Shown here in pieces: positions 1 to 64,000 of a stretch of DNA of 64,000 nucleotides. Position numbers and translations under genes: made by a program. How positions within the stretch are numbered: the first letter of the stretch is position 1; each line of letters starts with the position of its first letter. The notes under the pieces are model-generated. The model searched no databases. It was not told where the DNA came from and saw only the letters and a list, made by a program, of their open reading frames with translations. Source of the DNA: Bilabrum cf. latius (lineage: Eukaryota); the NCBI GenBank assembly GCA_965178125.1, contig OZ237753.1, positions 930,001 to 994,000 on the forward strand, in the 5' to 3' direction.

Positions 1-1599
1 CAGCGGAGGGGGCACGAACCGCGCCAGCTCGTCTGGGAGTGCATCTGATCCGCTCGACGCGCCTGGGGCCAGCCCTCCCACCGGCACAGCTGCCCCCATG
101 TCCTCGCCAGGACCCCCTTCCCCGCCCTTGCCTTCCTGCTCCCCGGCAGTCGCCGCCCCCGTCGCGCCTTTGCCTCCTCCTCCTCCTCCTCCGCCCCCGG
201 ACACGAGCGTTCTTCCCATCGAGGCCGCCCGCTGGCTGAGGCCCAGCACCTTCCGCGCCTGCGCCTTGAACGGGACCGGCTTCTTCCGCTCCACCGGCCG
301 GAAGGTGACTAGCAGCTCCTGCTGGCCCAGCGAGGGAACAGTGGCCTCATCCGGTGTGACGATCACGTCCCTCTAGCCAGGACCCAGAGACACCGCGCCA
401 CCGGAGCCGGACCCACCCGCGCCAGCACCCGCACCCGCGCCTGCGCCTGCCCCGCCGTCGCCCCCCTGCACCAGCCCCTCTGCGGGGTCAAACACCTCTG
501 CCTCCCCCGGCTTTCTCCTCCTAAACTGCTTGTCCACGGCAACTCGGAAAGAGGCCTCCTCGGGTCCGTTGTTCACCACGAGCAGCTTGAGCGTCCGCTC
601 CCTACCCACCATGACCGGCTCGAAGGCGACCTCGTCCACCTGCCCCTTGCCCTCGGGCCACACCACTTCTAGAGAGTGCGCCAGGACACTGGCGCTCACA
701 TCCACTGCGATGGGAGGCGCCCTGGATCCCTCCACCTCCAGCGTGGCAAGCGCCCTGAACACGTCCACTCGGTCTGCGTCCAAAGTGACCACCACCTCGT
801 CCGTCGGCGCGCTGCTCCTAACCCTCCGCTGCTGCGCGGGAGTCACTGCCTCGTTGAGGTTCAGGCCCGCCGCCACGGGGTTGGCGGGGAGCTCCCCCTC
901 GCTGGGGGAGAAGCTCAGGGGCAGCTCGCTGTCCCACCGGAGCCGCCAGCGAGACCCCGCCTGGCCGAGGCTGGCGATGCGCAGCCTGCGCTGCACCTTT
1001 CTGCCCACAGTCACATGCCCGAAATCCACCGTCGGGGATACCGGCTCGATCCGGGGGCAGGGCGCCAGGCCCAGCACAGGCACTCGAACCTCAAGGTCGC
1101 CGGACACGACCCGCACCTCGTCGCGGACGTCACGGCCATCCTTGTCCACCTCGATGAGCACCTCTACTGTCTGTTCTAGCCCAGGGGCGATGCCAGCGGT
1201 CGGCTTGTAGTTGGCCCGGATGTTAGGGTGTGTCGGGGGCACCACAGCGATGCGTCGCCGTCGGCTTCCAGAATTTTGAAGGCGAATCTCGGAGCGAAAT
1301 GACAGGCCCGGACGAATGCCGTGAAACACAATAGCTGCCGGAAATACGTGCAGCGGCCCAGCTTTGGCGGTTTCCCGTGTGGCGGCAGTCAGCACGTCAA
1401 TGTCGCCGATAGAGGGTGCGCCGTCCTGCAGTACCTATCTTGGAAGCAGCCGTGACCTCCGCACCTAACTGCTGTCATCTCCAGTGACACTTGACTGACT
1501 ATGAGCCTTCCCGCGCCCTGCCGAACTTTGGACGCTCCCTGAACTATTCGGATAGCGAGATCCGGCACCTGAGCCCGAGCTTGCCCTGGATTGGGACAT
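1..1599 (-). CDS. CFAP47: Cilia- and flagella-associated protein 47-like (ASH/Ig-like domains), N-terminal part; runs off the window
   Basis: ATG at 1599; frame open to position 1 if TAG (1465, 1435, 373) is sense. LHVFPAAIVF..IAPGLE..VPVLGLAP..VDFGHV..LVVNNGPE follows the CFAP47 N-terminal layout as I recall it. Confidence 0.75.
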
Positions 1600-1826
1600 C
1601 ACTATAATGCAGTGAAACGATTGGAAGTGTAATTAATATGAAATTATTGCTGGAAAGTAGATTGCTTTCCCGATACGCCTCAGCCGTGCCGGTCCGCGGC
1701 CAGATAGCGGTGCCAACGGACACGCCAAAAAAATGGAGCCTAACAACGAACCTTCGATTCACTGCACGGGGTTCGGCGGCGTCCAAGTCACTCAAACGGC
1801 ACAATATAGATGGCAAGTTCCTGATT

Positions 1827-3212
1827 ATGTGAGCCTGAGTCCATAAAGATGAAATAATTCAGCGATCGTGTTGGTGAATTGACCCGCAAATGACCCTGGA
1901 GCGCGAATTTGACTCGAGAATACGCATAAAACCGCCGCCTTTGGGTTGATATTGCCGCTCTGTTAGAAGAGAAAATAGCGAACGGTGCATTTCATCATTT
2001 TTTTAGGTTTTCCACAAAGCTTCACGTGCGTATCTACGGCGGATAGATGGATGAAGTCCGCGCTCTGCTAGCAGCTGGCGAGAACGCCAACGAAGTCGAT
2101 GAGGTGAGTTATGTGCTCGCGATGTGGGATGCACACCGTTCGGACCAAGTTTTTATGACTTTATATAGCTGATAACCTATCCCAGTCCTCTGCCTAGTGT
2201 CGCCTAGTGGTTCCGGCAAAGCGGGCCTGCCCTAGACTTGCCCCCAACGATGCGAGACTCGGTCAAGCCATCGGCTCATCTTGCCCAGGAAGCACTCCAA
2301 AGGTATATGAGCTGTATTTCATCGATGAATACCTCTGCAGAATGGCAACACTCCGCTTCACATTGCCGCAGAGGCCGGCAAGCCAGAGGCGGTCCCGATG
2401 TTGGTCGCCGCGGGAGCCGCGGTAGACGCCGAGAACCGCGTGAGGGAGAGGGAGGGGGAGAATCAGTATGTGCGCTCTCCTGAATCTATAGGAATCATCG
2501 GAAGTTGGTGATGCAAGTCTCGCTTGCAGTTCATCCCATCCCAGCCCATCCTGTTCGCAGGAAGGCAAGACCCCCATGTACGTGGCAGCGGAGCGGGGGC
2601 GCCCGGAGATATGCGCCCTCCTCGTCGGCCTAGGAGCAGTGAGAAAGTAGCGCACCTATTCACCTGGAATTATTGTGATGAGTGCAATGTGTTCGGGCCT
2701 CGCAGTCGCTTGCAGCTAGCAGCACCCCCTGCACCTCGGCACTGCACTGCACTGCACCGCAGGACATCACCGAGGACAAGTACCCGGACTTTGTCGCCTT
2801 CGAGTGCGTCCGGATCAACAAATTCATCAAGATGGCCCGTGGAAATAGGACCATGGTGGTGTTCTGGCTCATCGGCGAGTCGGCCCCACCGCACAAAGAC
2901 ACCGTGACGAGCATGCTCCCCTGGATATTTGCCCGCAGGAAAGCTAGGCTCGCGAGGTGGAGACGGGCGACAGATGCCCAGAGAGACGCGGGGTACATCT
3001 TCTGGTGCGCCAGGGACGGACGGCCGTTGGACCTGGAGCGGCGGCTGGTGCTGGGCGCGCGTGCCGGTGGGCTGGAGAGGAAGGGGGAGCTGCCGGGCGA
3101 TGAGGGGGGCACCAGGCTTGCGACCCCGCTCGAGGCGGCCAGAGCAGGGGGTCACACGGAGTGCGTCTAGTTGCTGGAGGATGCGGCTCGGAGGCTGGCC
3201 CCGTCGGTATGA
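1827..3212 (+). CDS. Ankyrin-repeat protein, multi-exon
   Basis: Exons approx. 2007-2103, 2341-2439, 2561-2638, 2763-3212 with GTGAG..AG introns. Motifs NGNTPLHIAAEAG, GKTPMYVAAERG, TPLEAARAGGHTECV*LL. TAG at 2044 and 3168, TGA at 3210. The start is uncertain; the ATG may be split by intron 1829-2006. Confidence 0.7.
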
Positions 3213-3370
3213 CGGCTGGTGGTGCTTCCGGTTTTCATGCCGCTGGTTGCTTCGCGGCAGTCTGCAATGAGTTTATCATGCATCGACGACTTGTCTGTAG
3301 CACCTTAAACAAGTTTCCTTGCTCTTCTTGGAATCACTCCCATTTCCTGTCGCGCGCATAGCTTGCACGC

Positions 3371-4987
3371 ATGGCCAGCAGTGCAGCACTTGGCCAGTCT
3401 CCGCCAAAGCCTCGCGTTGTGCTTGTGGTTGGCACAACAGGAGCAGGAAAAACAAAGCTTTCTGTTGATGTTGCTAAAGCCATTGGTGGTGAAGTAATCA
3501 ATTGCGATTCGGTGCAGATGCGTCGAGGACTGGACGTTGCGTCTGCAAAGGCAACTCCAGCCGAAATGGACGGGGTACCACACCACCTACTCAGCTTTCT
3601 GGATCCTCTTGACTCTAGCTATAGTGTGAAATCATTCAAGCGAGACGCGCTTGACCGCGTTGACGACATCACCAGGCGCGGGAGGGTGCCGATTGTGTGC
3701 GGAGGCACGCTGTATTACGCCCAAACTCTTCTATTCCCCGGCACCCTGGACTCAACGGAAGAACTCTTAGCAGTTCAAGGGGGGGGCAGTAAGTTTGCAC
3801 CCAGCGGTAGCGCCGTGGAGCCCGATGCCTCGCACAGGCCGTCCAAGCGACGACGGACGGAAATTGATAGTGCTGCCAGTGGTGATAGCGGGGTAGAAGC
3901 GCGTCACCACGGAGAATCGTCGGACACGGCCGATCATAAAGACGCAGCTGGAGCTGGTACAGTGCGATCTCGCCTGGCGGCTGCTCTCGGGCAGCATATC
4001 CGAAAAATGGCGGCCTCATCGTCATCATCACCGCGACCTTAGACAGACCCTTTGCAGCCGGTTGGGCCGGATCCGAGCCAGCTGCTGGAAGCAATAGAGT
4101 CTCTGGAAGCAGATCAGTTGCACTCTGTTCTCCGGAGCACGGACCCGGAGTCCGCTGCCCGGCTGCACCCCCGGGACCGCCGCAAGGTGCACCGCGCCCT
4201 CCTGGAGCAGGCGCAGAGGGGGCGCTTGTTCTCCCAGGCTATCAGGGAACAGAGAGAGATGGTCGCAACCGGGCTGCTGGAGGGGCCCGCGGAGTGCTTG
4301 GTGCTGCAGCCGTGGGCGGCAGACGACGTGCTGGCCCGCCGTCTGGGCGCGCGCGTGGACGGCATGGTGCGTGCGGGGCTGGTGGAGGAGGTGCTTCGGT
4401 TCGCAGAGTCTGGCGGATCGGTAGACAGAGGAAAAGAGGACAATAGGCCAGGGGACGGGCCAGTGGGTCTGCTGGGAGCGATCGGATTCAGGGAGTTTGC
4501 GCCTGTGCTAGAAATGAGGATGAAGAGAGCAGCGACGGGGGAGGGATAGCGCGGCCTTGAAGGCGGTTCTGCCTCCAGCAGCAGCAGCAGTAGTGCCAGT
4601 GCAGCACATATGCTTGGGGCGGGTCCCGCAGGGAAGGGGGATGAGGAGGCGGCAGTGCTGCAGGGTTGCCTGGCAGATCTCAAGCGGACTACTCGGCGGT
4701 ACGCCAAGTACCAGCAGCGCTTTCTGACTTCTAGATGGGAAAAGAGGGGTGTGCCCATCCTGCGTTTGAACACGTCAAGCGTGGGCGAGGTGGAGGGGGC
4801 GTGGGAAGAGCGAGTGCGGGGTCCAGCAGTGGCAGCGGTGCGTGCATTTCTGGAAGGTGGGCTGGAGGCGGTGCTGCGGCGGAGTGGTGCACCGCATGGC
4901 GGTGCAGTCCCGTGGGCCGGCATGATCCGGCGCGGGGAAGATGAAGATGGGGGTGGTGCAGGTGCAGGTGCAGGTGCAGGTGCAGGT

Positions 4988-5019
<32 letters not shown>

Positions 5020-5512
5020 GGGTGCAGGTGCGGGTGCGGGTGCAGGTGATAGTGCAGGCAGTGGTGTGACTTCGCTGCCGGGTAGCGTAGGCTCGGCTTG
5101 GCGGAAGTTTCGGTGCAATCTGTGCGGGAGCGAGCTGAACGGCTAGCACGAGCTCGAGGTACACCTGGGAAGCAAGTCCCACCGCAAGGGAGTGGCGCGG
5201 CGCCGCACGGTGGCTCGGGACCTCATTCGATTCGTGGAGGGCCGGGAGGAGAAAGGGGCCTCAAAGGAAGAGGCGGAGGCGGCTGCACGGGAGGTGCCAG
5301 TGTTTCGGGGGTGGACCCTTGAGCTGGCGAGGGAGGAGGTGGCCCAGGGAGGCGAGGGGGGCAAGCGGAAGGGTCACGGTGGGGGTGAGGGCGGCAATGT
5401 GGGTGGGCCCGCATCGAGTGGCGAGGGAGGAGATCGGTCGAGTGAGTCCGTGCGATGGCATGGGGCTTCTGTCCGGCGTGATCAGCTGAAGTGGCTTGAG
5501 GTGGTCGATTGA
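3371..5512 (+). CDS. TRIT1: tRNA dimethylallyltransferase (MiaA/Mod5/TRIT1) with C-terminal zinc finger
   Basis: GTTGAGKT, INCDSVQ, VPHHLL, CGGTLYY, LHPRDRRKV, GAIGFREF, TRRYAKYQ, CNLC..HLGSKSH. Four in-frame ORF pieces are joined by TAG at 4040, 4547 and 5144; ends TGA. Confidence 0.92.
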
Positions 5513-7072: not shown

Positions 7073-8044
7073 TCAGTGCCTCTAGCCCCCGTGGTCCTGC
7101 ACCCCGAAAGAGTCCTTCAGCAGGCTGTATATGGTGAAGGACACCGACACCGCCACTGGCCCCTTGAACACGTTCATGCTGAGGCCCTTGTAGAGCCCCC
7201 TCCACCCACCCTCCTGCACGACCCCACGAGCCACCTCCAGCATGCCTCGGGGCCTGGGCCTCTGCCGAGCCCCATCCGCCCCGATCGCTCCTCCGTCCAG
7301 CGCCTCCGTCTGCATCCTGCGCCTCACCACATCCAGCGGGTAACACGAGGCCTGGCCAAGCAGACCAGCCACGGCCCCGCACGCCAACCGCTCCACCACG
7401 GTGGGCTCCCTCCCGGCGCCATCCCTGATTCGCTGCTTGAGCGCGTCATTCGTCCAGAAGCTGACCGCTGCATACGGCACGATTCCAACAAGAGAGGGGC
7501 CCAAGCCGCGGTACAGGCCCGCCAGCCCCCGCGCTTGCACCACCTCGCGGGCGGCGGCCATCAGACCGAACTGGCTCGAGTGCAGCGACGTGAGGGCCAG
7601 CCGCGCCCGTAGCATGTCTAAGGGGTACGTCACCAGCGTGGACGCCGTCCCCGCGGCAGCACCAGCCACAAGGCGCTCCGTGTGATTGAGGCTCGCCGAC
7701 CGCGTTGCGTCACCGTGCCGAATCGCTCTCGCTTTTCGGAACAGATTGGCAAGGATGTCGAAAGTTGCCAGCTGTATGCCAGAGTATGGAGCAACGCGGA
7801 TAACCGTCGCAGAGTTGCCCTTCCAAAGACCTCTTGGTCCTTCTGTTCGTAGCAATCGTCCCAACTCGCCGGCCGCGGCCCGTGCGGAGAACTATCGGTG
7901 GCTGGTTTGAAAAATGATTTTGACTATATCGAGCGGGGCAATTAGTGACTTTGCAGCCGATCCGGCTATAGCTCCGGCCAAGAATCTGCGCAGGGGCTGG
8001 TACGACGGCTGGAGAGCTTCTCTATCAGCCTTAGCCAATGCCAT
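7073..8044 (-). CDS. SLC25A42: Mitochondrial carrier protein, CoA-carrier (SLC25A42/Leu5)-like
   Basis: Three carrier signatures (APLDIVKIIFQ, YPLDMLRARL, YPLDVVRRRMQ) plus LWKGNSATVIRVAPY. ATG 8044, internal TAG 7892 and 7082, TGA at 7073. Confidence 0.85.
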
Positions 8045-8283
8045 GTCACCGGTACCTTCCGTGCCCACACCGTCACAGACAAGTCAATCAGACTAACTCT
8101 ATGCTAATCAGTCTAGTCTCTTAGTACGTATCAATCATATTTGACGTGACTTTTCGCGGATATCGATTGTACTAGAGCTCGTATTATGATACATCCTGTC
8201 GGCTTTCGTTCTGCCGGAAAAAACGAACCTATCAGACCGAACGTTCGTCTTGATGAAAAAGCAACTGTCACACACAACGCAAA

Positions 8284-10254: not shown

Positions 10255-10414
10255 TCATTGGTTACACGGTATTGAGTCAAAATCTTCGCACACGCTGAAG
10301 GAAACCGCCAGTAACAACCTCCACAGCGGCGCCGCCGAGCTTCCGCCGCCGCCGGCGGTGACGGAACCTCGCAGCGAGTAGTTTTTCCGCCGCGCTTCAC
10401 GCACACCCGAGCAA

Positions 10415-23962: not shown

Positions 23963-24060
23963 CTCATTCGCTCGCTCACTGCACGGGCAGCAGCGATTTC
24001 TCAGTCAGGATCTCATTCGCTCGCTCACTGCACGGGCAGCAGCGATTTCTCAGTCAGGAT
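23963..24060. repeat. 2 x 49-bp tandem repeat including the glycoside hydrolase stop codon
   Basis: ctcattcgctcgctcactgcacgggcagcagcgatttctcagtcaggat at 23963 and 24012. Confidence 0.9.
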
Positions 24061-26654: not shown

Positions 26655-26687
<33 letters not shown>

Positions 26688-34253: not shown

Positions 34254-34284
<31 letters not shown>

Positions 34285-52225: not shown

Positions 52226-52406
52226 GTTTTTTCTTGTAATTCTACAAGTGAACGATTGCATGCATACATATACGCGCTCGCGCACGGACCCATCCGAGCA
52301 TTTGCTTCGTGACGAGCGAGCTTCAGAATGGAGTTTGCATGCATGCAAGCGCACAATCACAGCACACGTTTCGCTTATAAGTTCAGTGTAAACTTGGGCT
52401 GCTCAG

Positions 52407-53805: not shown

Positions 53806-56800
53806 TCACTGCCTGCCCTCTCCCGACCCCTCCTCGCGCGATATTGTCCACTCTCGCATGGCACGGTACAGCTCCACCCCCCTGAGCCGCTCTCCCACGT
53901 GTCGCGCGTGCACTAGCTCACGCAACCTCCTGCTCCTCAGGGGAGCGCCCTCCAGTGCCCCCCACAGCGGCTCCTCGATCCCAGACGCGCCCTCCAGAAC
54001 TGCCGCCGCGCCTTCTACGTCCAGCGGCCATGCGCCGTCCCTGTCACTGCCACTGTCCCTATTTGGTACAATGTACCCGCTTTGCGCAGAAGACGGCTGG
54101 TTCCAGGCAGCGAGCACTCGCTGCAGTCGCCCCGAGTGCAGCTGGCCCTGTCCGCCCAGCCCAGGTGAGACCCCCGAGTGCACAGAGTCCAGCATGGCAT
54201 CCAGCCAAACAGCTGCATCCTCCGCATGCCCTCCAGCCAGCCCGCCGGACAGCATGACTCTGTGCCGGACCCTGCTTCCCCCTAGCTGCTGCAGCATGGC
54301 CAGCATGTCAGGGCTCGCACCCAGCAGCGGGGTTGAAGGCGCGAGCGGAGCCATCTTGCGGGAGGCAGTCGGCTTGCTGGCTGCGATCATCGACGCATCC
54401 TGCAGCAGCAACAGTGCATCAGCTGCATCTGCAGCGCAGGGGGTACCATCTCCACCCGTGTGCAGCAGCAGCAACCTCCGCAGCTGTGCTACCTGCCACG
54501 CCGCTCTCAGTTGGTCAGCGGCTGCACCGTGGAGAGACAGGCCATCGGGACCTAGCTATATGCGCGCAGCGTGCTCCTGAACCACCGCCTAGGCAGCATC
54601 AAGCAAATGCTCTAGCTCACCAGCGCCTTGATCTTGATCGCCCCAATCTTTTGCCAGCACGATTGACTGGCCCACGGCGCGCCAAGTGGCCGACACGGCA
54701 CGATGGGCGTCGACAGGCGCTTCGTCTGCCAGCATTGCCTCTGCCGCCTATACAACGGCGGTCTATTCCCTTGTGAGCTGCTCGACGCTCGGACTCTCGT
54801 TGCTTCGACCGGGTGCCCCCAGCACGGCGCGGATACTGGACGCTGCTGCCTCTTCCAGCCCATCCAGTCGGCTGGCGACATCGGGCCGCGCGCTAGGCAC
54901 GCCCGCGAAAGTGGGCTGCCCGTGTTGCTGGTCCAGTGGATTGTCACCGTCTAGGCCCTCCAGCAGATCGGAGTGGTCCCACGTCTCCTCCCATCCTGGC
55001 GCGCCACCATCGGTCTGGCCGTCGCCCTGCAGTGCTCCAGCGACTGGTGCTGATGCACGAGCCAATGGCAGCTGCCAGGCAGCCGGCACCCAGACCCCGA
55101 GCTCTCCCAGCAGCACGTCCATCCGAGGAGGGAGAGACCATTGCGCCGCGCCATCGTCCCCAATGTTCATGCCTGCGATGCACTCGCCCAGCCCGCGGCA
55201 GTACTCATCCTGCAGGAGCCCGTGGGCAGTGCTTCCGGTCAGCAGACCCCTCGATGCCACCTCCTGTCGGATCTGCTCCGAGAGCCGCACTGCCATGGCG
55301 CGCTGACCTGCAGGGCACCACGGGCTCGCGCCCACGGCTAGCAGGTTGACGGCCACTCGAGCCAGCACCAGGCCAGCGCTCGACACACCATCCGCCAACC
55401 GCGCCTCCCCGGTCGTCTCGTTGGATGCGCCCGCCAATCCTCGTCGAGCTGCCACTGCAGCTACCACAGAGCTAGGGAACACAATAGCACCATGCCACGG
55501 GAGCTTCAAATCGCTCGGGGCCTCAATGGCACCCGCTCGAGCCGCGATCTCCACCGCATCGAGCACGTTCGTGCTCGTGTTCGTCAGGGTGGAGGCAGCC
55601 CCCAGCGCCCACCTGGCCGTGCCATCCACTGCCTCGATGCTTAGGTCAGCCCCTTGCCCCAAAATGACCCGCGCCTCTTCTGCCAGCAGCTCGTCCAGCC
55701 GCTGCAGCGCCGCACCCACTGCCAGCGCCACCGACAGGCGCGCCTCGTCGAGTGACAGAGGAACTGCAGCAGATTCGTCACCGCTAGCAGAGGCAGGACG
55801 GCCGTGGTCGCTACGCAGGTGCTCGTCACTCTCTGAGCCGTGGGGTTGCAGGGCTCGCCATGCTGAGGCGCATGCACGCAGGCACAGGCTGGCAGTGGTG
55901 CCGTTGCTCCCAGGCATCGCGGCTGCAATCACCGTGGCAAGCGGAGCCACGTGCCCCCAAGGGCTCTGCCCAGGGCCTGGGCTACCACTCGTTCTGCTAT
56001 CCCGAGTGGGTTCCAGCGACAGCTCCCGGCGGAGGGGACGCAGCTGCGAAGACACGCGCAGGAGGGCTGCACACGTGCGACCCATGGCCTGCAGCTGCCC
56101 ATGGCTCGCTCTAGTGCCGCGCTCCCCGTCCACCTGCTCAGCTGCCTCATCGTGCCGTGCCGTGGCACTACCATGCTCATGCTCATGCTCATGCTCATGA
56201 TCGTGATCATGCGAGAGGGCAGACCCTGAGCCCAGCGCGTGCATGAGGCTGATGGCCGTGTGTCGCACCTGCCACGCGGCCTCTCGCCACAGCTCAGGCA
56301 GTATCACTTCGTCTTTGTCTTCGTCTATGGCTTCCTCTTTGTCTGTTTCGTCCGCACTCGTGAATGCATCTGCATGCACACCACGCTCACCTTCGTCCCC
56401 ACTCTCACTTTCCTCTTCCTCCTCCTGCTCCTCCTCCCCGTGCATCACCCCCAGCACCTCGATGGCCCGCAGCACAGCCAAGGGACCCAGCGGCCGGTCC
56501 ACGTCATCCAGCGGCCGCGCTACCCGCATACAAGCCCCCGCCACCGCCTCCAGCCTCGGGTCGATCCTCAGCAGGCTGCCAGCCATGAGGAGCACCCTCT
56601 CCCTCGAGAGAGGCCCGGGGAGGCCCGTGGGCTTGGGGCCTCGGAGGGCGGACTGGTCAAGGGATGCTCGCTGGGGTGGGAGGGGCGGTGGCCCGGGGAG
56701 GCCGCGCTCGTGCCTGAGGCTGCGGGATGCCTTCAGCACGCGGCTCTCCACGCGGTCCATGTCGCCGTGCTGCTTCAGGTTGCCGTCCAGCAGGGCCTTG

Positions 56801-57570
56801 ACGGCGCCGCGCATTAACCTGCGGAACTCGGGGTCTTCGCCGTACAGCAGAGCAAGCCCCCCGCGTGTGGCAGCGCCGTAGGGCGGAGGCCAGCTGTTCG
56901 GTCCCTGTTGCGATGCCGCAGTAGACCCTGCCCCCTGCTGTGCGTGCGCCAGCATGAGCCTGTGCGCCTGCTGCCGACGGGCGACCGACGGGGAGGAGGC
57001 CAGCTGAGCCAACCGATTGCAGGCCTGCTCATACAGTCCAAGGGTAAATGCCTACCGATAGCGGGCATGGATTGCAAGGAGAGACTCGATCGAGCGGGCG
57101 AAACGGAGCCGCTTGCCGATGTGAGCTGCCTCCGATTGTTCGGCTTGCTGCGATAGCGACGATTGCCTCTACGTATCGTCCCTCCGCAACTTTCGTCGAA
57201 CGGCAGACAGCTAATTCATTTCTTGCGGGGTCAACGCAACAAGCCTTGAGCCACGAGACTGAGCAGCGGGTTCGATCTGGTTGTCGGTAGCACCCCGGCC
57301 AGCAACGCGACGGCCTAGCGGCGCCTTTGCAACGTTCTAACCGGAAAATTCCGTAACATGCACGATATCCGAGGATGTAGCAGGCTTGCGAGGTTCCAAT
57401 TTTGGCGTACCGACCCTCGGTCGATTGGGATCGCGCAGTTTCGCTAGCCTTGCACGCTTCTTCTGGAATGCCTAGGCCGCTTGGGAGGTGGCAATGAACC
57501 GACGGGGGCGCTCCAGCTGCATTTGGCCGACAGCAAGAATCTCTCGTATAATATTAGCGCGGCGATTCAT
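53806..57570 (-). CDS. Large hypothetical alpha-helical protein with possible mitochondrial targeting peptide
   Basis: Single frame of about 1250 codons from ATG 57570 to TGA 53806 when about nine TAGs are read through; basic N-terminus MNRRANIIREIL. Confidence 0.6.
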
Positions 57571-57925
57571 ACTGGATGTTGTTTAATCGGTGAAGACTGG
57601 GACATTTTGTTCAAGTGGAGGAACTGAGTTCGGAATCATAAGTGAATTGTCCGCAGTTGCTGGCCAGGACCCATCAGGCCACGGTGGCAGTACCAAGCTG
57701 GCACGGCCACCGTGGTTCGATGTGTGCGCAGCGCGCACGGTTTGATCCGCGCTGCCGGTATGGCCGCGGCGCCGCGAAGAATCTATGCATGCCTGGCGTA
57801 CACCAACGGTGGCTCGCAGCCACCAGCTGTGCCTCAGCAGCGCCACATTCGGACGGCGTTCGTGCAGCTCCCTGCCAGTGGTGAGCTGATGCAGCCCAAA
57901 ATGGCTCTCACTACTAGGTGCACAA

Positions 57926-58683: not shown

Positions 58684-60402
58684 TGGAACTAATTTCAAGA
58701 ATAGAAGCAGTGAAGCTGCTTCGTCGGCAGAGACAGCTTGAAATGAAGCAGTTGGAGTCGCCGTCGTACCTTGCACTGGTGAGAGAGCGCGAGCCTAAGA
58801 TCTCCTTACCGTACCATGTCGAAGCCTGTTGCTTCTGACGTTACGCCTCCAGCACTATAAAAGCTACAATAATACAATACATGTATTGCAGGAAGCTGGT
58901 GCGACCACCGTGGTCAAGTCCTAGCGCACTGCAGCGCAACTTCACGAGGCCATTACAACCAATCCCATGGAGCGGCCTGCAGTAAAAGAGATCATGCGCA
59001 GACTCGATATTGCAAAAAGATGGGTCTATAAGGAGGTTATTAGCGCAAGCATGCAGCATAGCTCTACGCCTGGATCCCATTTGCCAGATACGGACGCGAT
59101 GGAGACGCTTGCCGAACCAAGCGCCACAACCGTGACAAAGATTTAGTTTCTGGAGCAGCAACTGGAAGAACTGAAACGATTGATGGAATTGCAAACGGAA
59201 GAGGCTAGGGGCGCAGGACAGGGCGCAGCCGATGAGCCCTTGGAGGACATGTCAGTGTCGGAGTGCGACGAGGAGGAGCAGGACGAGGACAGCGAATGCG
59301 GTGGGGAGGAGGCAAGCATCTCGGCCAGCTCAGACGGGGAAGGGGGGCACATCAGATCCTATGGGGACGGGGCAGGCGGGGCACCCCTGGCTTTCTGCCA
59401 ATCGAAGCCACTGGCACTGGCAGCGACACAGAACCAGGGATGTAGTACGCCACCACAGCAGCGGCAGGAGGATCAACTTCAAGCTGCTCACTAGCCGCCC
59501 GACAGCGAGACACTGGCAAACCGCGGCGTGCCTCGGCACTCGCCCGGGCACAGGGCGGCTGCCGGAGCGGCAGCTGCGGCGGCTGCCCGCCGGCTCGGGG
59601 GCGCTGGGGTTGCGATGGGCATCGGGTCTGGCATGCGCAGGCGCAGCTCCATGCGGCCGTCTGTGGCCCGCCGCTCCATGGGCATGGGCATGGGCATGGG
59701 AGCAGCAGCACCAGGAGCTGCAGGCGCCGCCACTCAGGGCCGGCAGGGCGGGCGGCAGAGGCAGAGCGGATGGGCGTCGTCTTCGGTTGCAACCGGCAAG
59801 TCGTCTCGAAGCGGGGGGTCCAGGGCGGGGGCGTCGGCCGGTGGGGCGGCCCGTCGGCCGGACATGACCTCTTTGGTTGCGCAGGCGTTCGCCACGGTGC
59901 AGCTGAAGAAGGTGGGCAAAGAGGCGCGGGCCAGCGGCAAGCAGGGAGGCAGGGGCACGGGCAGGGGCAGGGGCAAAGGGGCAGGGGCTGGAGGTGCATT
60001 GCGCGGTGGTGCCTCCAAGGGCGGGCTAGAAGGGGCGCTCAAGAACGCGCTCGCTTCTAGGTTCCGTCACATGGCGGGCGCGGCCCCGGTGGCCCGCCGC
60101 GAGAGCATCGCGTCTTCCGTGGACACATCCTCGCCCTTCAGCGAGTGCTCGGATGATTCCGCGGCACCGCGCATGCCCTTGTTCCGCAGGGGCGGGCCCG
60201 CACCCGCGACGGCTGGAGGATCAGCCCCTGCCCGCAGGTCGTTGTTGTCCAGGGCACAGTCTTCCAGCGTGCTGCTCCCCACGGCGGCGGACGCAGACGA
60301 CCAGGAGAAGCACTCAGGCGACCAGGAGAAGGACGCAGACGACCAGGAGAAGCACTCAGGCGACCAGGAGAAGGACGCAGACGACCAGGAGAAGCACTCA
60401 GG

Positions 60403-60436
<34 letters not shown>

Positions 60437-61183
60437 CACACCGATGCGTCTGCAAGCGGACCTGTATCTCCTGCGGGGGTCTCTGCTCTGGAGGCAGCCG
60501 TTAGAGCGGGGGAACAAAGGGGAGCTGGATTGCCACCGCAGACGCAGCCGGTGGCCAATGCACAGGCGGCCTGTTCGGCCCGACTGATGCCCCGCCCGAG
60601 GCCGAGGCCGAGGCCCGCTCCCGCTGCGGTGCCAGGAAGGCCAGGCAGGCCCGGGCCACCTGCTGCTTTTGCACCTGCGCGACCCGGTAGGCCAGGCAGG
60701 CCCGGGCCACCAGCTGCTTCAAACGGTGCTATGCCTGCGCGACCCGGGAGGCCGGGCAGGCCAGGGAGGCCGGGAAAACCTGGCCGGCCGGGTCCTGCAC
60801 CGTCTGCGGGCGCGGGTGGCGCAGGTGGGATGCCCATGCCCATGGGAGGGCTGCTTGCTGAGATTAGGGGGTTCGGCAAGGGCAAGGGTAAGGGCAAAGG
60901 GAAGGGCAAGGGCGGGCTCCGGCCGGCAGATGGCAACAAGGGGCCCGCCGGCAAGAGTGTTTCCGCAAGCGCGGCGCCGATGAGCCTCGCGGATGCGATC
61001 AAGGCCGCCGCCAGCAAGCGGAAGGGCAAGGGTAAAGGCAAGGGGCAGGCCGCAAAGCTGGCCGCGCTTGAGGCAAAGCGGACTTTGGGCTCTCCGGCAG
61101 CTGTTGCGTCGGGCGGGGGGATGGCGGCGCAGGCAGCCGCTTTCCGCGGCAAGCTTAGAAAGACTGGCCGCAAGCTGAGGTGA
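58684..61183 (+). CDS. Proline/glycine-rich protein with WH2-like motifs (putative actin regulator)
   Basis: Main exon approx. 58892-61183 is open through TAG 58922, 59144 and 59492. Motifs LLAEIRG..LRP, VQLKKVG, KLRKTG and (PGR)n tracts. 5' exon uncertain. Confidence 0.55.
60290..60403 (+). repeat. Coding tandem repeat, 42-bp unit (DADDQEKHSGDQEK), about 2.7 copies
   Basis: gacgcagacgaccaggagaagcactcaggcgaccaggagaag repeated. Confidence 0.85.
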
Positions 61184-61597
61184 GCGGAGCAATCCAATCG
61201 GGCTTGCAGGGTCCGTCTCTCCCCCGCGTATTTTGTCACAGTATCTAATGAGCTATGTAGTGAATACCCAAAACCACAAGTATGTTCAAGTGAAAATGCC
61301 CAAGTGCAGCGGAACTACTTCAAGGTCATCGCACCACCACCACCCCAACCAGAACGGATCTCCATCGGCGCAGCTGGCACCCGACACCAAACCGCCCCGC
61401 CCCCCCCGGCCCACCACGTAGACACCGCGCCCAGCACGCCTAGCCCTACATCCAAGACCGCGACGGTCCCGGCAAGGGCTTCAAGGCATGTGCTTTGAGC
61501 CAACGGGAGGCGAAGTGGGGGACCTGGCAGCAGGCACTGCCCCGAGCGAGAGCGAGATCGACACAGCCAGGCCGCCGTGACTTGCCCCTGGCAGCGC

Positions 61598-64000
61598 TCA
61601 GAAATCCTTGAAGTGGTCCTGCGGGCCGCTGTACGGCGTGACCGGCTCGTCCTCATACTCGTCGGGGAAGCAGCTCGTGTCGAAGGGGTTCTTGAGCTTG
61701 GGCACCCACGGCGCCCTCATCTTCTTGGTCTGCAGCTGGATCCAGTCGATGTCCTTGGCAAACCACCGGTGGTTCATGATGTCCTTGCTCCCGTTGCGCT
61801 TGCAACCCAAGCGGTTCGTCACCTTGGCCACAAGGAGCTTAGCGATAAGGTCCTTGGCGTCCCTGTCCCGCATCCAGCTGGGCCACGAGAGCCGCCCCCT
61901 CACGATGGCCTTGCAGATCTTCATCTGGTCAGAGCCGCCGGAGCTGTCGGCGAAAGGGGAGTACCCCACCAGCATCTCGTAGATGAGCACGCCGGTGGCC
62001 CAGTGGTCCACGCCCGCGCCGTGGCCCTTGCCCAGCACCAGCTCGGGGGCAAGGTACTCGGGAGTACCGCACAGCGTGTACGTCTTGCTGCCCGCCGCCA
62101 GCTTCTTGGCGAAACCCATGTCTACGATCTTGATGAAGCCCTGCGCGTCCAGGAGAAGGTTCTCGGGCTTGAGATCCCTGTAGACGATGCTCTTCTCGTG
62201 CATGGCGGCGAGCCCTGCAATGGTGCAGGCCGCGTAGAACTTGGCGTGGTCCGAGGGCAGGCAGCCCGTCTCCTGGTTGGACAGCAGCGTGAACAGCTCG
62301 CCCCCCTGGACCAGCTCCAGCAGCATGAACAGAGAGTCCTTGTCCTGGAAGGTTTGGATCAGGCCCAGCACGAAGGGGTGGTTAATCTGCGCCAACACGT
62401 CCCTCTCGTACTAGATGTTCTTGACCTGGCCGTACTCCACGACCTGAGCCTTCTGCAGCACCTTGAGTGCCATGGCCTCGCCGGAGGGACCGTGCCGGAT
62501 CAGCTTCACCTTGCCGAAAGTGCCCGCGCCCAGGATGCGGATCTGCTCCAGGTCGCTGAACCGGATGTCCGTGCGCAGCCTGGACGTGGTGGTGTCCCCA
62601 TCCGCGCCCTCACCCGCCGCTCCAGCCGCCGAGGTCGTCTCCTTTGGCTTGCCCTTCCTGGCCTGCACCTTGGCTAGAGACACGCCCACCGCCCGCTCGA
62701 AAGTGGGCTTATCGATGGCCAGCACCGCGGTCTTGTCCTCCGTGGCAGTGGCGGAGGGCACCCTGGAGCCGCCCGAGCCCATGAGCGCCTCGAGGCCGAA
62801 GCAAGCACCCGCCTCCACCTTCACGCCGCCGTCCAGCTGCACCGCGCCCTGCTTCACCACCATGAAGAGACCGTGACCCGCGGCGCCCCCAGGCTGCACC
62901 ACCTCCCCCGCGGCGAATTCCCTACCCACGAGCGCCGCCACCATGCGCTCCTTCTCCTTGTCGCCCAGGTTGGCCAGCTGGGCCTCCGTGCTCACCACGC
63001 GGATGCCCAGGTTGTGGTCCAGCACCTCCTTCAAGGGACCCAGCAGCTCCGTGAATGCCTTCCGGTCCAGCACCATGCACTTGCAGCTCTCCGCGGCCAC
63101 CACGTCGGCCGCCCTCGGCTCGTCCAGGAGCAGAGCCCTCTCGCCGAAGTAAGCACCCGTGGGCAGGGCGAGTTCCTTCCCCTCCGCGCCGATGTTCTTG
63201 CACATGACGCTTCCCTCCTGCAGCATGTAGAACTCCTGCGCCTTGTCTCCGCTCTCGCCCTTGGTGATGATCGTGTCACCGGGCTTGAAGGTCCTCATCT
63301 GCACCGCGTCCGCCACCTGGGCCACCTGCGAGTCAGTGAGGCTCTCCAGGAGGGGTACCTTGCGGAGGCTGGCCACAACCTGCGCCTGCTGGTCCTCCTT
63401 CGTCGAGGCGATCATGTAGCGGAAGGTCACTCGGTCCAGCGCCCACACCCGCGCGGGACCCGCCGCCACCACCGAGGCCGCCCTGGGAGCGTTGTAGAGG
63501 AGCGCCAGCTCCCCGAATGCGTCGCCCACAGTGCGGGAGGCCACCTTGTTGTCGCCCACGAAGATGTCGAAGACGCCCTCCTCCACGACGTACCACTCGT
63601 TCCCGTGGTCTCCCTGCTTGATGATGGCTTCTCCCTTGCTCAGCTTCTTCTCCTTCATGGCCATCACCACGTCCTCGATCTCAGAGGCAGACAGGGAGCT
63701 GAACAAAAAGCCCGCCGCGCCGTCCGGGGACAGAGTCTTGCGGATGATAGACTTGCTGGCCTCTCCCTTGGGATAGACAGGGAGCTTGAAATCCTCTCGT
63801 CGGCTAGCATCGTAAGACTCGGCCATGATCACGCCGCGCTTCTTCTTTGCCTTGCCCGAGGCAGCCCCGCCGGCGGCACCGCTCGGTCGCTTCGCACCGG
63901 CACTGCTCAATCGCTTCGAGCCGGCCGGTGGCTCCCACTGCGTCAAATTCTTCTCTTCGTTCCAGAAAAACACGTCTCCAGACTGCTCGTCAACCTCCTC
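61598..64000 (-). CDS. Cyclic-nucleotide-dependent protein kinase (PKG-like): WW domain, three CNB domains and AGC kinase; 5' end outside the window
   Basis: FFWN..TQWEPP (WW), FGELALLYNAPRAASV, FGERALLLDEPRAADV, GAGTFGKV, YRDLKPEN, DMGFAK, TLCGTPEYLAPE. The kinase domain continues across TAG 62411; TGA 61598. Confidence 0.92.

What the first reader, a model, noticed from the sequence alone, without database searches (positions are those of the whole stretch)
1..64000. Non-standard nuclear genetic code: TAG is a sense codon (Gln) while TAA and TGA remain stops
Seen in sequence: about 90 in-frame TAGs (manual count) interrupt 24 of 26 gene models. These include conserved housekeeping genes (TRIT1, CWC27, Uba4, CARM1, CoA carrier, PKG-like kinase, Spo11). 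The frame and domain continue after each TAG with no frameshift or splice signal, and I found no internal TAA or TGA in the models. Established knowledge: UAA and UAG are usually reassigned together in eukaryotes. UAG-only reassignment is reported in very few lineages, e.g. UAG=Gln in the fornicate Iotanema spirale and UAG=Leu in an uncultured rhizarian. Inference: this GC-rich flagellate may represent a further independent origin, implying a tRNA-Gln(CUA) and an eRF1 that rejects UAG. Neither gene is in this window.
Basis: partly seen in the sequence, partly recalled or inferred. Interest (0 to 1): 0.97.

Follow-up and report, generated by a model that had tools for sequence, protein, structure and literature searches.

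The report
UAG read as glutamine in a stramenopile
This GC-rich nuclear DNA of a flagellate related to Cafeteria uses the stop codon TAG as an ordinary codon, most likely for glutamine, while TGA and apparently TAA still end genes, which adds a new lineage to the few eukaryotes with this rare genetic code.

Summary
If only TAA and TGA are stops, 24 long ORFs cover 52.9 of 64 kb and carry 88 in-frame TAG codons and no TAA or TGA. 79 of these TAGs lie after the first ATG and outside introns defined by RNA contigs, in 22 of 24 ORFs. At least 9 TAGs lie inside Pfam or PDB-aligned domains. Spliced contigs of two runs carry the TAGs unchanged: 18 of 31 checked. A codon model trained only on standard-code ORFs finds coding signal on both sides of 22 of 765 TAGs and of 0 of 1618 TAA or TGA (p = 1e-11).

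Glutamine is the best reading. TAG sits at the RYSRQ Gln of Uba4 (Q in 120 of 120 homologs) and at the sugar-binding Gln of an MRH domain. A relative whose PKG is 98% identical reads Q there. One site (CWC27) aligns mostly with Lys, and the four distant-homolog columns alone leave Gln and Lys tied.

21 ORFs end in TGA and one true gene end is TAA. The nearest named relative is Cafeteria roenbergensis. The tRNA and eRF1 genes could not be examined. I found no published report for stramenopiles.

The parts
1..1632 (-). Fragment of a HYDIN/ASH/PapD-like flagellar protein. It runs off the window. In-frame TAG at 1465, 1435 and 373.
   Evidence: ORF and TAG places. Pfam ASH, PapD-like and HYDIN_VesB hits.
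3104..5509 (+). tRNA isopentenyltransferase (TRIT1/Mod5 type) with a C-terminal zinc finger. TAG at 4040, 4547 and 5144. TAG 3359 lies just before the likely start Met at 3371. The ORF ends in TGA.
   Evidence: Pfam IPPT, E = 1.2e-44. PDB matches lie on both sides of TAG 4040, and the zinc finger continues after TAG 5144.
7076..8083 (-). Mitochondrial carrier. TAG 7892 lies inside the first carrier repeat. TAG 7082 lies two codons before the TGA stop.
   Evidence: Pfam Mito_carr, E = 2.9e-67, with the stretch 28-117 holding residue 64. PDB alignments.
8257..10251 (+). CWC27-type cyclophilin. TAG 8680 lies inside the isomerase domain, at a column that is mostly Lys.
   Evidence: Pfam Pro_isomerase stretch 27-184. 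PDB shows K in 5 of 5 printed alignments. In 183 domain copies from 150 representatives the column holds K 108, R 22, Q 10.
9761..11977 (+). ABC-type ATPase. TAG 10379 lies upstream of the domain. The ORF ends in TGA.
   Evidence: Pfam ABC_tran, E = 2e-30. TAG place.
12269..14254 (-). Uba4/MOCS3 adenylyl- and sulfurtransferase. TAG 13943 sits at the RYSRQ motif. Further TAGs at 14057, 12968, 12962, 12926 and 12725. TAGs 14234 and 14207 lie before the first ATG. The TGA stop coincides with the C-terminus of homologs.
   Evidence: Pfam ThiF stretch 101-360 and Rhodanese. PDB Uba4 alignments. Q in 120 of 120 homologs at this column. The Cafeteria alignment ends at the C-terminus. Contigs of X6 and X7 cover 13147-14322 with no other letters.
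14428..16083 (+). CARM1-type protein arginine methyltransferase. TAG 14848 is in the CDS. TAG 14470 lies before the first ATG. The ORF ends in TGA.
   Evidence: PDB CARM1, E = 1.5e-98. Pfam PRMT_C. An X6 contig covers 14447-16224 unchanged.
16446..19061 (+). OS-9/XTP3B-like ER lectin with MRH domains. TAG 16893 sits at the sugar-binding Gln of MRH1. Further TAGs at 16554, 17772, 18201, 18369, 18612 and 19041. TAG 16449 lies in the intron 16357-16451.
   Evidence: Pfam PRKCSH. In the PDB alignment the TAG pairs with Gln133 of XTP3B. The protein's own second MRH domain and OS-9 have Q at the same place. Gln133/Arg207/Glu228/Tyr234 bind mannose (passages of PMC12217079). The four side chains are conserved in the MRH family (passage of PMC9388126).
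19225..22434 (-). Repeat-rich protein of no known family. TAG at 21826, 20878, 20803 and 20365. Intron at 22210-22304.
   Evidence: ORF. No Pfam hit. The joint is seen in X6 and X7, and all four TAGs lie in contig pieces of X6 or X7.
22907..23881 (+). Short-chain dehydrogenase. This is the only gene without a TAG. Intron at 22867-22984 upstream. The ORF ends in TGA.
   Evidence: Pfam adh_short. Joint seen in X7.
24028..25086 (-). ORF of no known family. TAG at 24946 and 24217. TAG 25075 lies in the intron 25013-25122.
   Evidence: Joint seen in X6. The tail after the last TAG scores +24 bits in frame, against -15 and -9 out of frame.
25910..29417 (-). Ankyrin plus histone-deacetylase gene. Two ORFs are joined in frame by the intron 27274-27391. 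TAG at 29244, 29106, 29079 and 27819. TAG 27333 is intronic. It ends in TAA at 25907-25909, the only true TAA gene end in the window.
   Evidence: Pfam places the Ank repeats and Hist_deacetyl profile positions 2-115 in the upstream ORF and positions 196-290 in the downstream ORF. Joint seen in X6. That the frames match is my own arithmetic on the coordinates.
29585..30847 (-). Adenylate-kinase-like protein. TAG at 30263. Intron at 30668-30862. The ORF ends in TGA.
   Evidence: Pfam ADK. Joint seen in X6 and X7, and the TAG is covered by both.
32291..37375 (+). 1695-codon ORF of no known family, with 9 TAGs (32936, 33041, 33278, 35699, 36041, 36479, 36518, 36845, 37031).
   Evidence: It has the highest codon-model score in the window, 465 bits. 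The 114-codon tail after the last TAG scores -5.8 bits in frame, against -29 and -30 out of frame, so an end at TAG 37031 is not excluded.
37911..40364 (+). Docking-complex protein of the outer dynein arm (ODAD1/DC2 type). TAG at 38085, 38385 and 38973.
   Evidence: Pfam ODAD1_CC. The PDB alignment to Chlamydomonas DC2 covers query residues 5-342 and spans two TAGs.
40508..42565 (-). DHHC palmitoyltransferase-like membrane protein with 7 TAGs (42500, 42407, 41816, 41810, 41804, 40793, 40634).
   Evidence: Pfam DHHC stretch 355-447, with TAGs on both sides. TAG places.
43435..47679 (+). 1415-codon coiled-coil ORF with 6 TAGs (44356, 44497, 44743, 44839, 45283, 47314).
47886..50648 (-). Ser/Thr protein kinase, C-terminal part of the domain plus a long tail. 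TAG at 49803, 49776, 49368 and 48588.
   Evidence: Pfam Pkinase, E = 1e-38, profile positions 99-261.
52392..53738 (+). Spo11/Top6A. TAG 52527 lies upstream of both Pfam domains, in the N-terminal part. TAGs 53031 and 53064 lie between the TP6A_N and Toprim domains. The ORF ends in TGA.
   Evidence: Pfam TP6A_N stretch 90-151 and Toprim stretch 257-436. The PDB Top6A alignment reaches position 300 of 301 in the chain.
53809..57582 (-). 1258-codon ORF of no known family with 9 TAGs.
   Evidence: The tail after the last TAG scores +37 bits in frame.
58799..61180 (+). 794-codon low-complexity ORF. TAG at 59144 and 59492. TAG 58922 lies before the first ATG.
61601..64000 (-). cGMP-dependent protein kinase (WW domain, three cNMP-binding domains, kinase). 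It runs off the window. TAG 62411 lies inside the kinase domain. Codon 552 (CAG) is the place where the close relative's predicted proteins stop.
   Evidence: Pfam. P0121 and P0241 are 98% identical, read Q at the TAG and end just before the CAG.
2682..3209 (+). Short, doubtful ORF that may hold an ankyrin-like fragment, with one TAG (3168).
   Evidence: Weak codon score of 17 bits. No Pfam hit.

Best explanation
The window is nuclear DNA of a GC-rich, intron-poor heterotrophic flagellate. By single-gene evidence it is a stramenopile near the bicosoecids, and Cafeteria is the nearest named genus.

In this organism UAG is no longer a stop. Ribosomes read it as an ordinary codon, most likely glutamine, where it makes up about a tenth of the Gln codons (88 TAG, 614 CAG, 129 CAA). 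TGA ends almost all genes. TAA is rare but still outside coding frames.

**Shown here:**
- TAG lies in frame inside conserved domains.
- TAG is kept in spliced mRNA.
- TAG aligns with invariant Gln residues, and with Gln in a near-identical relative.

**Inferred from established knowledge of the other lineages that reassigned UAG alone (passages of PMC5304391 and the text of PMC11687900):**
- Decoding is by a tRNA-Gln with anticodon CUA. This anticodon is one base away from tRNA-Gln(CUG), and it pairs with UAG but not with UAA.
- The eRF1 has lost its grip on UAG.
- TAG codons arise from CAG by silent C-to-T changes.
For: 1. **ORF structure.** There are 24 ORFs free of TAA and TGA with 88 in-frame TAGs. 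79 remain after the first ATG and outside introns.
2. **TAGs inside aligned homology.**
   - ThiF stretch 101-360, Mito_carr 28-117, Pro_isomerase 27-184.
   - Pkinase 485-747.
   - ODAD1_CC.
   - Two MRH sites.
   - Further TAGs lie between two domains of one protein: IPPT, Top6A, Ank-HDAC and ThiF-rhodanese.
3. **Test free of the ORF definition.** Coding signal lies on both sides of 22 of 765 TAGs, against 0 of 1618 TAA or TGA. p = 1.1e-11.
4. **RNA.**
   - Contigs of X6 and X7 skip six segments of 95-195 nt with GT..AG ends on the gene's strand. X1 does not skip them.
   - Depth is even in X1 and very uneven in X6 and X7.
   - No other letters and no indels were reported.
   - 18 of 31 ORF TAGs in 12000-31000 lie in the listed pieces of X6 or X7.
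5. **Residue.**
   - Uba4 RYSR-TAG has Q in 120 of 120 homologs.
   - The MRH1 TAG pairs with Gln133 of XTP3B, one of four sugar-binding side chains conserved in the family.
   - P0121 and P0241 match the window's PKG at 445 of 453 residues and read Q at the TAG. Both stop just before a codon that is CAG in the window.
6. **Stops.**
   - 21 ORFs end in TGA and one true gene end is TAA.
   - All 9 extensions across a TAA lack a clear coding score, from -31 to +2.5 bits.
   - If TAA were used like CAA, 18.5 in-frame TAAs would be expected, and 0 are seen. This part is circular with the ORF definition.
   - In the continuity test 4.6 would be expected and 0 are seen, p = 0.01.
Against: - **CWC27 column.** It is mostly Lys: K 108, R 22, Q 10 of 183.
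- **PKG column.** In distant homologs it is hydrophobic: M 41, L 30, V 16, I 16, K 13 of 129.
- **Gln or Lys.** Summed over the four columns with many homologs, Q and K are tied at 1.6 against 1.5 bits. Gln therefore rests on the MRH site, on Uba4 and on one close relative.
- **The relative's DNA was not seen.** Its TAG at the window's CAG is an inference from where two predicted proteins end.
- **Run types are not on record.** The tool guessed 'probably DNA' for X6.
- **Partial RNA check.** Only the listed contig pieces could be checked, so 13 of 31 TAGs are unverified in RNA.
- **TAA.** Its role as a stop rests on one gene end.
- **Possible TAG gene ends.** Two genes have a TAG 2 and 6 codons before their TGA. 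By chance this has p = 0.14. One long ORF has a tail without coding signal after its last TAG. Some use of TAG as a stop is therefore not excluded.
- **Machinery unseen.** No tRNA gene, eRF1 gene or peptide data were available.
Confidence: 0.85

Rival explanations
1. TAG is a sense codon for an amino acid other than glutamine. Lysine is the main candidate. Leucine is a second, as in the rhizarian exLh and some phyllopharyngean ciliates.
For: - The CWC27 column is K in 108 of 183 domain copies and in 5 of 5 printed PDB alignments.
- The N-terminal Uba4 column is R 46, K 25, Q 10.
- The PKG column is M, L, V or I in distant homologs.
- The four-column score puts K within 0.1 bit of Q.
Against: - The Uba4 RYSRQ column is Q in 120 of 120 homologs.
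- The MRH sugar-binding position is Gln.
- The 98%-identical relative reads Q at the PKG TAG.
- TAG is one transition away from CAG, but it needs a transversion to reach AAG or TTG.
- Leu scores -9.5 bits.
Confidence: 0.06
2. TAG has two meanings. It is read as Gln inside genes but still ends some genes, depending on context, as in Condylostoma, karyorelictids or UAA in Blastocrithidia.
For: - TAGs lie 2 and 6 codons before the TGA of the carrier gene and the lectin gene.
- The 114-codon tail of ORF 32291-37375 has no coding signal.
- 22 TAGs show coding signal upstream only.
Against: - None of the 22 complete ORF ends needs a TAG.
- 18 of 20 tails after the last TAG score positive in frame and lower out of frame, and one of the two exceptions is explained by an intron.
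- Two TAGs this close to an end are expected by chance, p = 0.14.
- Where homologs reach the C-terminus, the end is at TGA: Uba4 and Top6A.
Confidence: 0.08
3. TAG is translated without a dedicated tRNA(CUA). A near-cognate tRNA-Gln(CUG), or a structurally altered tRNA, reads it because eRF1 no longer competes for UAG. Blastocrithidia does something similar: it reads UGA with a tRNA-Trp that has a shortened anticodon stem (my recollection, supported only by the abstract listing of PMC13092985).
For: - No tRNA gene lies in the window, so a CUA tRNA is not shown.
- tRNA-Gln is a known near-cognate reader of UAG (abstract of 10.64898/2026.05.08.723929).
Against: - TAG makes up 0.5% of codons, in 22 of 24 ORFs, and sits at invariant catalytic or binding residues. 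This calls for efficient decoding.
- Wherever tRNAs for UAG-to-Gln are known, they carry CUA (passages of PMC5304391).
Confidence: 0.1
4. The TAGs are not translated at all. They would be pseudogene lesions, assembly or read errors, sites edited to CAG in the RNA, or sites removed as tiny introns.
For: None found. 13 of 31 TAGs in the laid region lie outside the contig pieces that the tool listed.
Against: - The sequence is identical in contigs of four runs from four studies, with no other letters.
- Spliced contigs run straight across 18 TAGs.
- TAA and TGA never interrupt these frames, whereas the other frames hold 23-45 TAA and 233-258 TGA.
- The real introns here are 95-195 nt long with GT..AG ends.
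Confidence: 0.01

Closest known systems
Iotanema spirale (Fornicata): UAG = Gln, with UAA and UGA as stops (PMC5304391: abstract and passages read)
   Same: Only UAG is reassigned, and to glutamine. UAA is kept out of coding frames. A tRNA-Gln(CUA) and a change in eRF1 are the predicted mechanism.
   Different: Iotanema is an anaerobic metamonad in which UAA is the dominant stop. The window comes from an aerobic stramenopile that has a mitochondrial carrier and flagellar genes. Its DNA is 60-70% G+C, and TGA ends 21 of 22 complete ORF ends. The origin is therefore separate.
Phyllopharyngean ciliates Hartmannula sinica and Trochilia petrani, and Protocruzia tuzeti: UAG = Gln (PMC11687900: abstract, introduction and discussion passages read)
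   Same: It is the same code, NCBI table 15. UAG is widespread in most genes, and UAA is retained as a stop.
   Different: These are ciliates, with genomes of 27-54% G+C and UAA as the preferred stop. Here the supergroup is different, the genome is GC-rich and TGA is preferred.
Rhizarian exLh and three TARA phyllopharyngean genomes: UAG = Leu. Scotinosphaera: UAG = Ser (PMC11687900 discussion passage)
   Same: UAG is split from UAA.
   Different: The amino acid differs. Leu scores -9.5 bits here and is absent from the Uba4 column of 120 homologs.
UAR = Gln codes (table 6) of many ciliates, hexamitid diplomonads, ulvophytes, Streblomastix and Amoeboaphelidium (PMC11687900 discussion passage)
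   Same: A stop codon is reassigned to Gln.
   Different: In those codes TAA is a sense codon too. Here there are 0 in-frame TAAs where about 18 would be expected at the CAA:CAG ratio. None of 284 TAAs has coding signal on both sides.
Cafeteria roenbergensis, the nearest named relative
   Same: It is a GC-rich, intron-poor heterotrophic stramenopile. Its PKG is 56% identical to the window's and its Uba4 is 51% identical. The window's PKG falls in a clade of 13 rows with Cafeteria, with 99% SH-aLRT support.
   Different: The database holds its PKG (861 aa) and Uba4 (500 aa) as full-length proteins predicted under the standard code. I did not test its code directly.

Membership tests
Nuclear code with UAG alone reassigned to Gln (NCBI table 15 type) | In-frame UAG inside conserved protein-coding genes, with the frame and the homology continuing after it | tested here: met
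   88 TAGs in 24 ORFs. At least 9 lie inside Pfam or PDB-aligned stretches. Coding signal lies on both sides of 22 of 765 TAGs, against 0 of 1618 TAA or TGA.
Nuclear code with UAG alone reassigned to Gln (NCBI table 15 type) | UAG is present in mature mRNA, neither edited nor spliced out | tested here: met
   Contigs of X6 and X7 with six GT..AG splice joints carry 18 of 31 TAGs with no other letters. The run types are guessed, not on record.
Nuclear code with UAG alone reassigned to Gln (NCBI table 15 type) | UAG columns correspond to Gln in homologs | tested here: met
   Q in 120 of 120 homologs at Uba4. Gln133 of XTP3B MRH1. Q in the 98%-identical relative. Against this: the CWC27 column has K 108 and Q 10 of 183, and Q and K tie over the four distant columns. 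The feature is met on balance, on few sites.
Nuclear code with UAG alone reassigned to Gln (NCBI table 15 type) | UAA is not a sense codon | tested here: met
   0 in-frame TAAs in 17,632 codons. 0 of 284 TAAs have coding signal on both sides. The 9 extensions across a TAA score from -31 to +2.5 bits. One true gene end is at TAA. Numbers are small because TAA is rare in this GC-rich DNA.
Nuclear code with UAG alone reassigned to Gln (NCBI table 15 type) | UGA is a stop | tested here: met
   21 ORFs end at TGA. The ends of Uba4 and Top6A match the C-termini of homologs. 0 of 1334 TGAs have coding signal on both sides, and 32 have it upstream only.
Nuclear code with UAG alone reassigned to Gln (NCBI table 15 type) | A tRNA with anticodon CUA and Gln identity | not testable with these tools
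   No tRNA lies in the window and there is no Rfam match. No whole genome is held.
Nuclear code with UAG alone reassigned to Gln (NCBI table 15 type) | Altered N-domain of eRF1 (GTS, NIKS, YxCxxxF motifs) | not testable with these tools
   The gene is not in the window and no genome is held.
UAR = Gln code (table 6) | UAA is also used as a Gln codon | tested here: not met
   0 in-frame TAAs where 18.5 would be expected at the CAA:CAG ratio.
UAG = Leu code (rhizarian exLh, TARA phyllopharyngeans) | UAG columns correspond to Leu | tested here: not met
   L is absent from the Uba4 column (0 of 120) and is not among the six commonest residues of the CWC27 column. It is common only in the variable PKG column, 30 of 129. 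The summed score is -9.5 bits.
Ambiguous stop/sense codes (Condylostoma, karyorelictids, Blastocrithidia UAA) | The same codon also ends genes, depending on context | tested here: inconclusive
   No ORF end needs a TAG. Two TAGs lie 2 and 6 codons before a TGA, p = 0.14 by chance. One tail has no coding signal.

The most novel reading that the evidence does not exclude
This is the first stramenopile, and the first strongly GC-rich eukaryote that ends its genes with TGA, found to have reassigned UAG alone to glutamine.

The change arose on the long branch that leads to this flagellate and its 98%-identical sister. That branch comes after the split from Cafeteria-like bicosoecids, whose PKG orthologs are full length under the standard code.

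UAG is not expected to be a rare stop in a genome of 60-70% G+C. The case therefore argues against codon capture driven by AT pressure. It offers a culturable, intron-poor system with close relatives on the standard code, in which the tRNA-Gln(CUA) and eRF1 steps of a code change could be dissected.
Probability: 0.55. Interest if true: 0.85.

Novelty: new member of a known kind. Interest (0 to 1): 0.8.

Why it matters
Nuclear codes that separate UAG from UAA are rare. The papers I read name a fornicate, a rhizarian, a green alga and a few ciliates (PMC11687900, PMC5304391).

A case in a stramenopile would add an independent origin in another supergroup. It would also sit in an unusual setting, a GC-rich genome in which TGA rather than UAA is the working stop. 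This bears on two open questions: whether code changes need the codon to become rare first, and how eRF1 can drop UAG while keeping UAA.

There is a practical side too. Any standard-code annotation of this assembly truncates nearly every protein, since 22 of 24 ORFs here carry a TAG. Gene calls for this organism and its sister in public protein sets are visibly cut at such sites (P0121 and P0241).

Tried and rejected
- **Whole genome.** None is held for the window. So there was no Codetta-style run, tRNA scan, eRF1 check or 18S placement.
- **tRNA and Rfam scans of the window.** Nothing found.
- **GC3 as a frame marker.** It did not separate frames well enough, so I replaced it with a codon model.
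- **ODAD1 homolog search.** No hit; coiled-coil words swamped the word index. That search was wasted.
- **Metagenome scan with a PKG alignment.** It returned 80 loci at 28-50% identity and no close relative.
- **Sequencing runs.** No listed holder is on record as RNA.
- **Gln neighbours.** 14 of 80 TAG codons have a Gln within two residues (0.175). The figure is 0.262 for Gln codons and 0.10-0.19 for the other residues. This is uninformative.
- **PDB alignments at variable columns.** The carrier, PKG, the second MRH site, the Mod5 zinc finger and the three ODAD1 sites fit a polar residue but do not decide. The PRMT TAG lies outside the aligned part.
- **P0001.** This top Uba4 hit is labelled as an amphipod protein. 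It is a tandem duplicate at 40% identity, not a relative.
- **Literature.** Seven searches aimed at novelty found no nuclear UAG reassignment in a stramenopile, bicosoecid or Cafeteria. Two more found none in a nanoflagellate or under the label 'table 15'. The library lacks most subscription journals. Supplements were closed, so the supplementary screens of PMC5304391 and PMC11687900 may list taxa that I could not see.
- **Pyrrolysine and selenocysteine.** I considered and set these aside. The aligned residues are Gln, and TGA behaves as a plain stop.

Full report
**What the window is.** The 64 kb are 60-70% G+C throughout. They hold no tRNA gene and no Rfam family. The genes are eukaryotic and nuclear. 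Pfam and PDB searches find:
- a tRNA isopentenyltransferase
- a CWC27 cyclophilin
- Uba4/MOCS3
- a CARM1-type arginine methyltransferase
- an OS-9/XTP3B-like lectin
- an ankyrin-HDAC protein
- a mitochondrial carrier
- Spo11
- a PKG
- flagellar proteins of the ODAD1/DC2 and HYDIN/ASH types

Genes are packed at about one per 2.5 kb. Introns are few and short, 95-195 nt with GT..AG ends.

**The observation.** Under the standard code no ORF exceeds 806 codons. With TAG read through, ORFs of 1695, 1415, 1258 and 1070 codons appear. Reading TGA through also lengthens ORFs, because TGA is the commonest stop triplet in this DNA. ORF length alone therefore proves nothing.

I picked ORFs bounded by TAA or TGA with a codon model. 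This gave 24 non-overlapping ORFs over 52,896 bases, with 88 in-frame TAGs. 79 of them lie after the first ATG and outside introns defined by RNA contigs, in 22 of 24 ORFs.

In frame there are 88 TAG, 0 TAA and 0 TGA in 17,632 codons. The other two frames of the same ORFs hold 87 and 101 TAG, 23 and 45 TAA, and 258 and 233 TGA. So TAG is as common in frame as out of frame, while the other two stops are shut out.

**A test that does not lean on the ORF definition.** I trained a codon model only on ORFs free of all three stops: 29 ORFs with 11,277 codons. For every stop triplet on both strands I then asked whether the 50 codons before and the 50 after, in its own frame, both score above 8 bits.
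- TAG: both sides coding at 22 of 765.
- TAA: both sides coding at 0 of 284. Upstream only at 1.
- TGA: both sides coding at 0 of 1334. Upstream only at 32, as expected of a gene end.

Fisher p = 1.1e-11. The threshold of 8 bits is arbitrary.

**Homology across TAGs.** TAGs lie inside these Pfam stretches:
- ThiF 101-360, Mito_carr 28-117 and Pro_isomerase 27-184
- Pkinase 485-747
- ODAD1_CC 211-368

They also lie inside PDB alignments to XTP3B and OS-9 (two sites) and to DC2 (two sites). Others sit between two domains of one protein in one frame:
- the IPPT halves
- TP6A_N and Toprim
- ankyrin and HDAC
- ThiF and rhodanese

Of the 20 tails after a last TAG that are long enough to score, 18 score positive in frame and lower in both other frames. 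One exception is explained by an intron. The other is a low-complexity tail.

**Are the TAGs in the mRNA?** One search found runs that hold the stretch, and none is on record as RNA. I laid four runs on window:12000-31000. X1 covers it evenly, at depth 6-15 apart from one simple repeat, and shows no splice-like joints. X6 and X7 have very uneven depth. Their contigs skip six segments with GT..AG ends on the strand of the gene concerned:
- 16357-16451
- 22210-22304
- 22867-22984
- 25013-25122
- 27274-27391
- 30668-30862

The tool labelled X6 'RNA? (probably DNA)' and X7 'RNA?'. I read both as holding transcript-derived contigs because of these joints.

The tool reported no other letters and no indels in any run. 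Of the 31 ORF TAGs in the laid region, 18 lie inside the listed pieces of X6 or X7. These include the Uba4 RYSRQ site and the MRH site. The tool listed only part of the pieces, so the other 13 are unchecked, not contradicted.

The intron at 27274-27391 joins the two HDAC ORFs in frame, by my arithmetic on the coordinates. This explains why the Pfam HDAC profile is split between them.

Editing, micro-introns, read errors and pseudogenes are thus excluded for the sites that could be checked.

**Which residue?**
- *Uba4.* The TAG stands in the RYSRQ motif. The column is Q in 120 of 120 homologs and in the solved Uba4 chains.
- *The lectin.* The TAG pairs with Gln133 of XTP3B (the chain holds the full 483 residues). 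Gln133, Arg207, Glu228 and Tyr234 bind the terminal mannose (passage of PMC12217079). The four side chains are conserved across the MRH family (passage of PMC9388126). The protein's own second MRH domain and OS-9 have Q at that place.
- *PKG.* Two database proteins, P0121 and P0241, match the window at 445 of 453 residues. They read Q where the window has TAG. Both come from different contigs, yet both stop just before a residue that is CAG in the window. This is what a standard-code gene caller would do if the relative has TAG there. I did not see the relative's DNA, so that last step is an inference.

Against glutamine:
- The CWC27 TAG column is K 108, R 22, Q 10, N 9 of 183 domain copies, and K in 5 of 5 printed PDB alignments.
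- The PKG column in distant homologs is M 41, L 30, V 16, I 16, K 13 of 129.
- A log-odds sum over the four columns with many homologs leaves Q at 1.6 and K at 1.5 bits, then R at -1.4 and L at -9.5.

Within this window the distant-homolog tally therefore cannot separate Gln from Lys. The MRH site, the near-identical relative and the single-transition link between TAG and CAG tip it to Gln. I put Gln at about 0.9, given that TAG is a sense codon.

The other sites fall in variable columns that fit a polar residue: the carrier, the second MRH site, the Mod5 zinc finger and the three ODAD1 sites.

**TAA and TGA.** Of the 23 ORF ends inside the window, 21 are TGA and 2 are TAA. One TAA is the true end of the HDAC gene. 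The other is an out-of-frame read into an intron. The ends of Uba4 and Top6A coincide with the C-termini of homologs.

All nine extensions across a TAA lack a coding score. If TAA were a Gln codon used in the CAA:CAG ratio, about 18 would be expected in frame, and none is seen. That figure is partly circular with the ORF definition. In the continuity test 4.6 would be expected and 0 are seen, p = 0.01.

TGA is firmly a stop. TAA is very probably a stop, on thin numbers.

A dual role for TAG is not excluded. Two genes carry a TAG 2 and 6 codons before their TGA, which has p = 0.14 by chance.

**Who is it?** The nearest named Uba4 is from Cafeteria roenbergensis, at 51% identity. The PKG hits at 52-58% include a 90% cluster that holds the Cafeteria roenbergensis PKG. 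Cantina marsupialis follows at 45%, then oomycetes and Platysulcus.

In a quick single-gene tree the window and P0241 sit on a long stem (0.45) inside a clade of 13 rows with Cafeteria, with 99% SH-aLRT support. Cantina is the next outgroup, with 92% support. This suggests a bicosoecid-like stramenopile. One gene does not make a phylogeny.

The relatives at 52-58% identity are held as full-length PKGs of 711-883 residues predicted under the standard code. At the window's mean TAG frequency, a 780-codon gene would escape a TAG with probability 0.02. At the PKG's own rate the probability is 0.38. This hints, weakly, that those relatives keep TAG as a stop.

**Mechanism.** That UAG is translated and stands for Gln is shown here. 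Three steps are inferred from established knowledge:
- Decoding is by a tRNA-Gln(CUA), which pairs with UAG and not with UAA and is one base away from tRNA-Gln(CUG).
- The eRF1 is weakened for UAG. Iotanema has a T32G change in the GTS motif and the rhizarian has an Ala at position 69 (passages of PMC5304391; introduction of PMC11687900).
- New TAG codons arise from CAG by silent transitions.

None of these could be tested, because neither gene is in the window and no genome is held.

**Comparison and novelty.** The papers I read describe these reassignments of UAG alone:
- Iotanema (Gln) and a rhizarian (Leu)
- Scotinosphaera (Ser)
- Protocruzia, Hartmannula and Trochilia (Gln)
- three TARA ciliate genomes (Leu)

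These come from the discussion passages of PMC11687900 and from PMC5304391. Those described there keep UAA as the main stop. The window shows the same code as the Gln group, but in another supergroup, in GC-rich DNA, and with TGA as the working stop.

Nine searches of the held library found no stramenopile case. The library lacks most subscription journals, and supplements were closed.

The sequence stands in public runs of several studies, so the organism itself is not unknown. Whether its code has been noticed I cannot say. I file it as a new member of a known kind.

**Verdict.**
- TAG is a sense codon: about 0.97.
- It stands for Gln: about 0.9.
- TGA is a stop: about 0.97.
- TAA is a stop: about 0.85.
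- The whole statement, with the tRNA-Gln(CUA) mechanism: 0.85.

Noticed in passing
window 26640-26687: This is a short simple repeat inside the HDAC gene, where the protein has a run of serines. Its depth is 594-2745 in X1, X6 and X7 and 17.6 in X5, against 0-60 in the neighbouring bins. There are dozens of loose ends and back-joints in the runs. The same repeat must therefore occur at many places in the genome.
   Followed up: no
window 19225-22434 (-): This protein of no known family holds two sets of near-perfect tandem repeats: four copies of a unit of about 24 residues and three of about 27. It is the most deeply covered gene in X6 and X7, at depth up to 492 and 71.
   Followed up: no
window 9761-11977 (+): This ATPase resembles the small bacterial ABC subunits (Pfam ABC_tran, plus a weak AAA_21 hit). 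It has long low-complexity flanks. Its upstream ORF overlaps the end of the CWC27 ORF in another frame. An origin by gene transfer from bacteria was not examined.
   Followed up: no
window 61601-64000 (-), with proteins P0123, P0126, P0131 and P0132: The PKG carries an N-terminal WW domain (Pfam E = 0.00015, below the cut-off). The same pairing of WW and PKG is precomputed for several of the nearest relatives, including a Cantina marsupialis protein. It may mark this stramenopile group.
   Followed up: partly
window 3104-5509, 8257-10251, 9761-11977, 40508-42565 and others: Runs of alternating Gly-Ala, of up to about 20 pairs, interrupt otherwise conserved proteins. So do poly-Ser and acidic runs. 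These are microsatellite-like inserts tolerated inside housekeeping genes.
   Followed up: no
window 50700-52390: This is the longest stretch without a convincing gene. The one ORF there (51129-51941) has five TAGs, no Pfam hit and no coding score.
   Followed up: partly
window 12000-31000, introns: At least five of the six introns seen lie at the 5' ends of their genes. The sixth splits the HDAC gene about two thirds of the way along its coding part. Three of the six hold an in-frame TAG that a naive ORF count would add to the tally (16449, 25075, 27333).
   Followed up: yes
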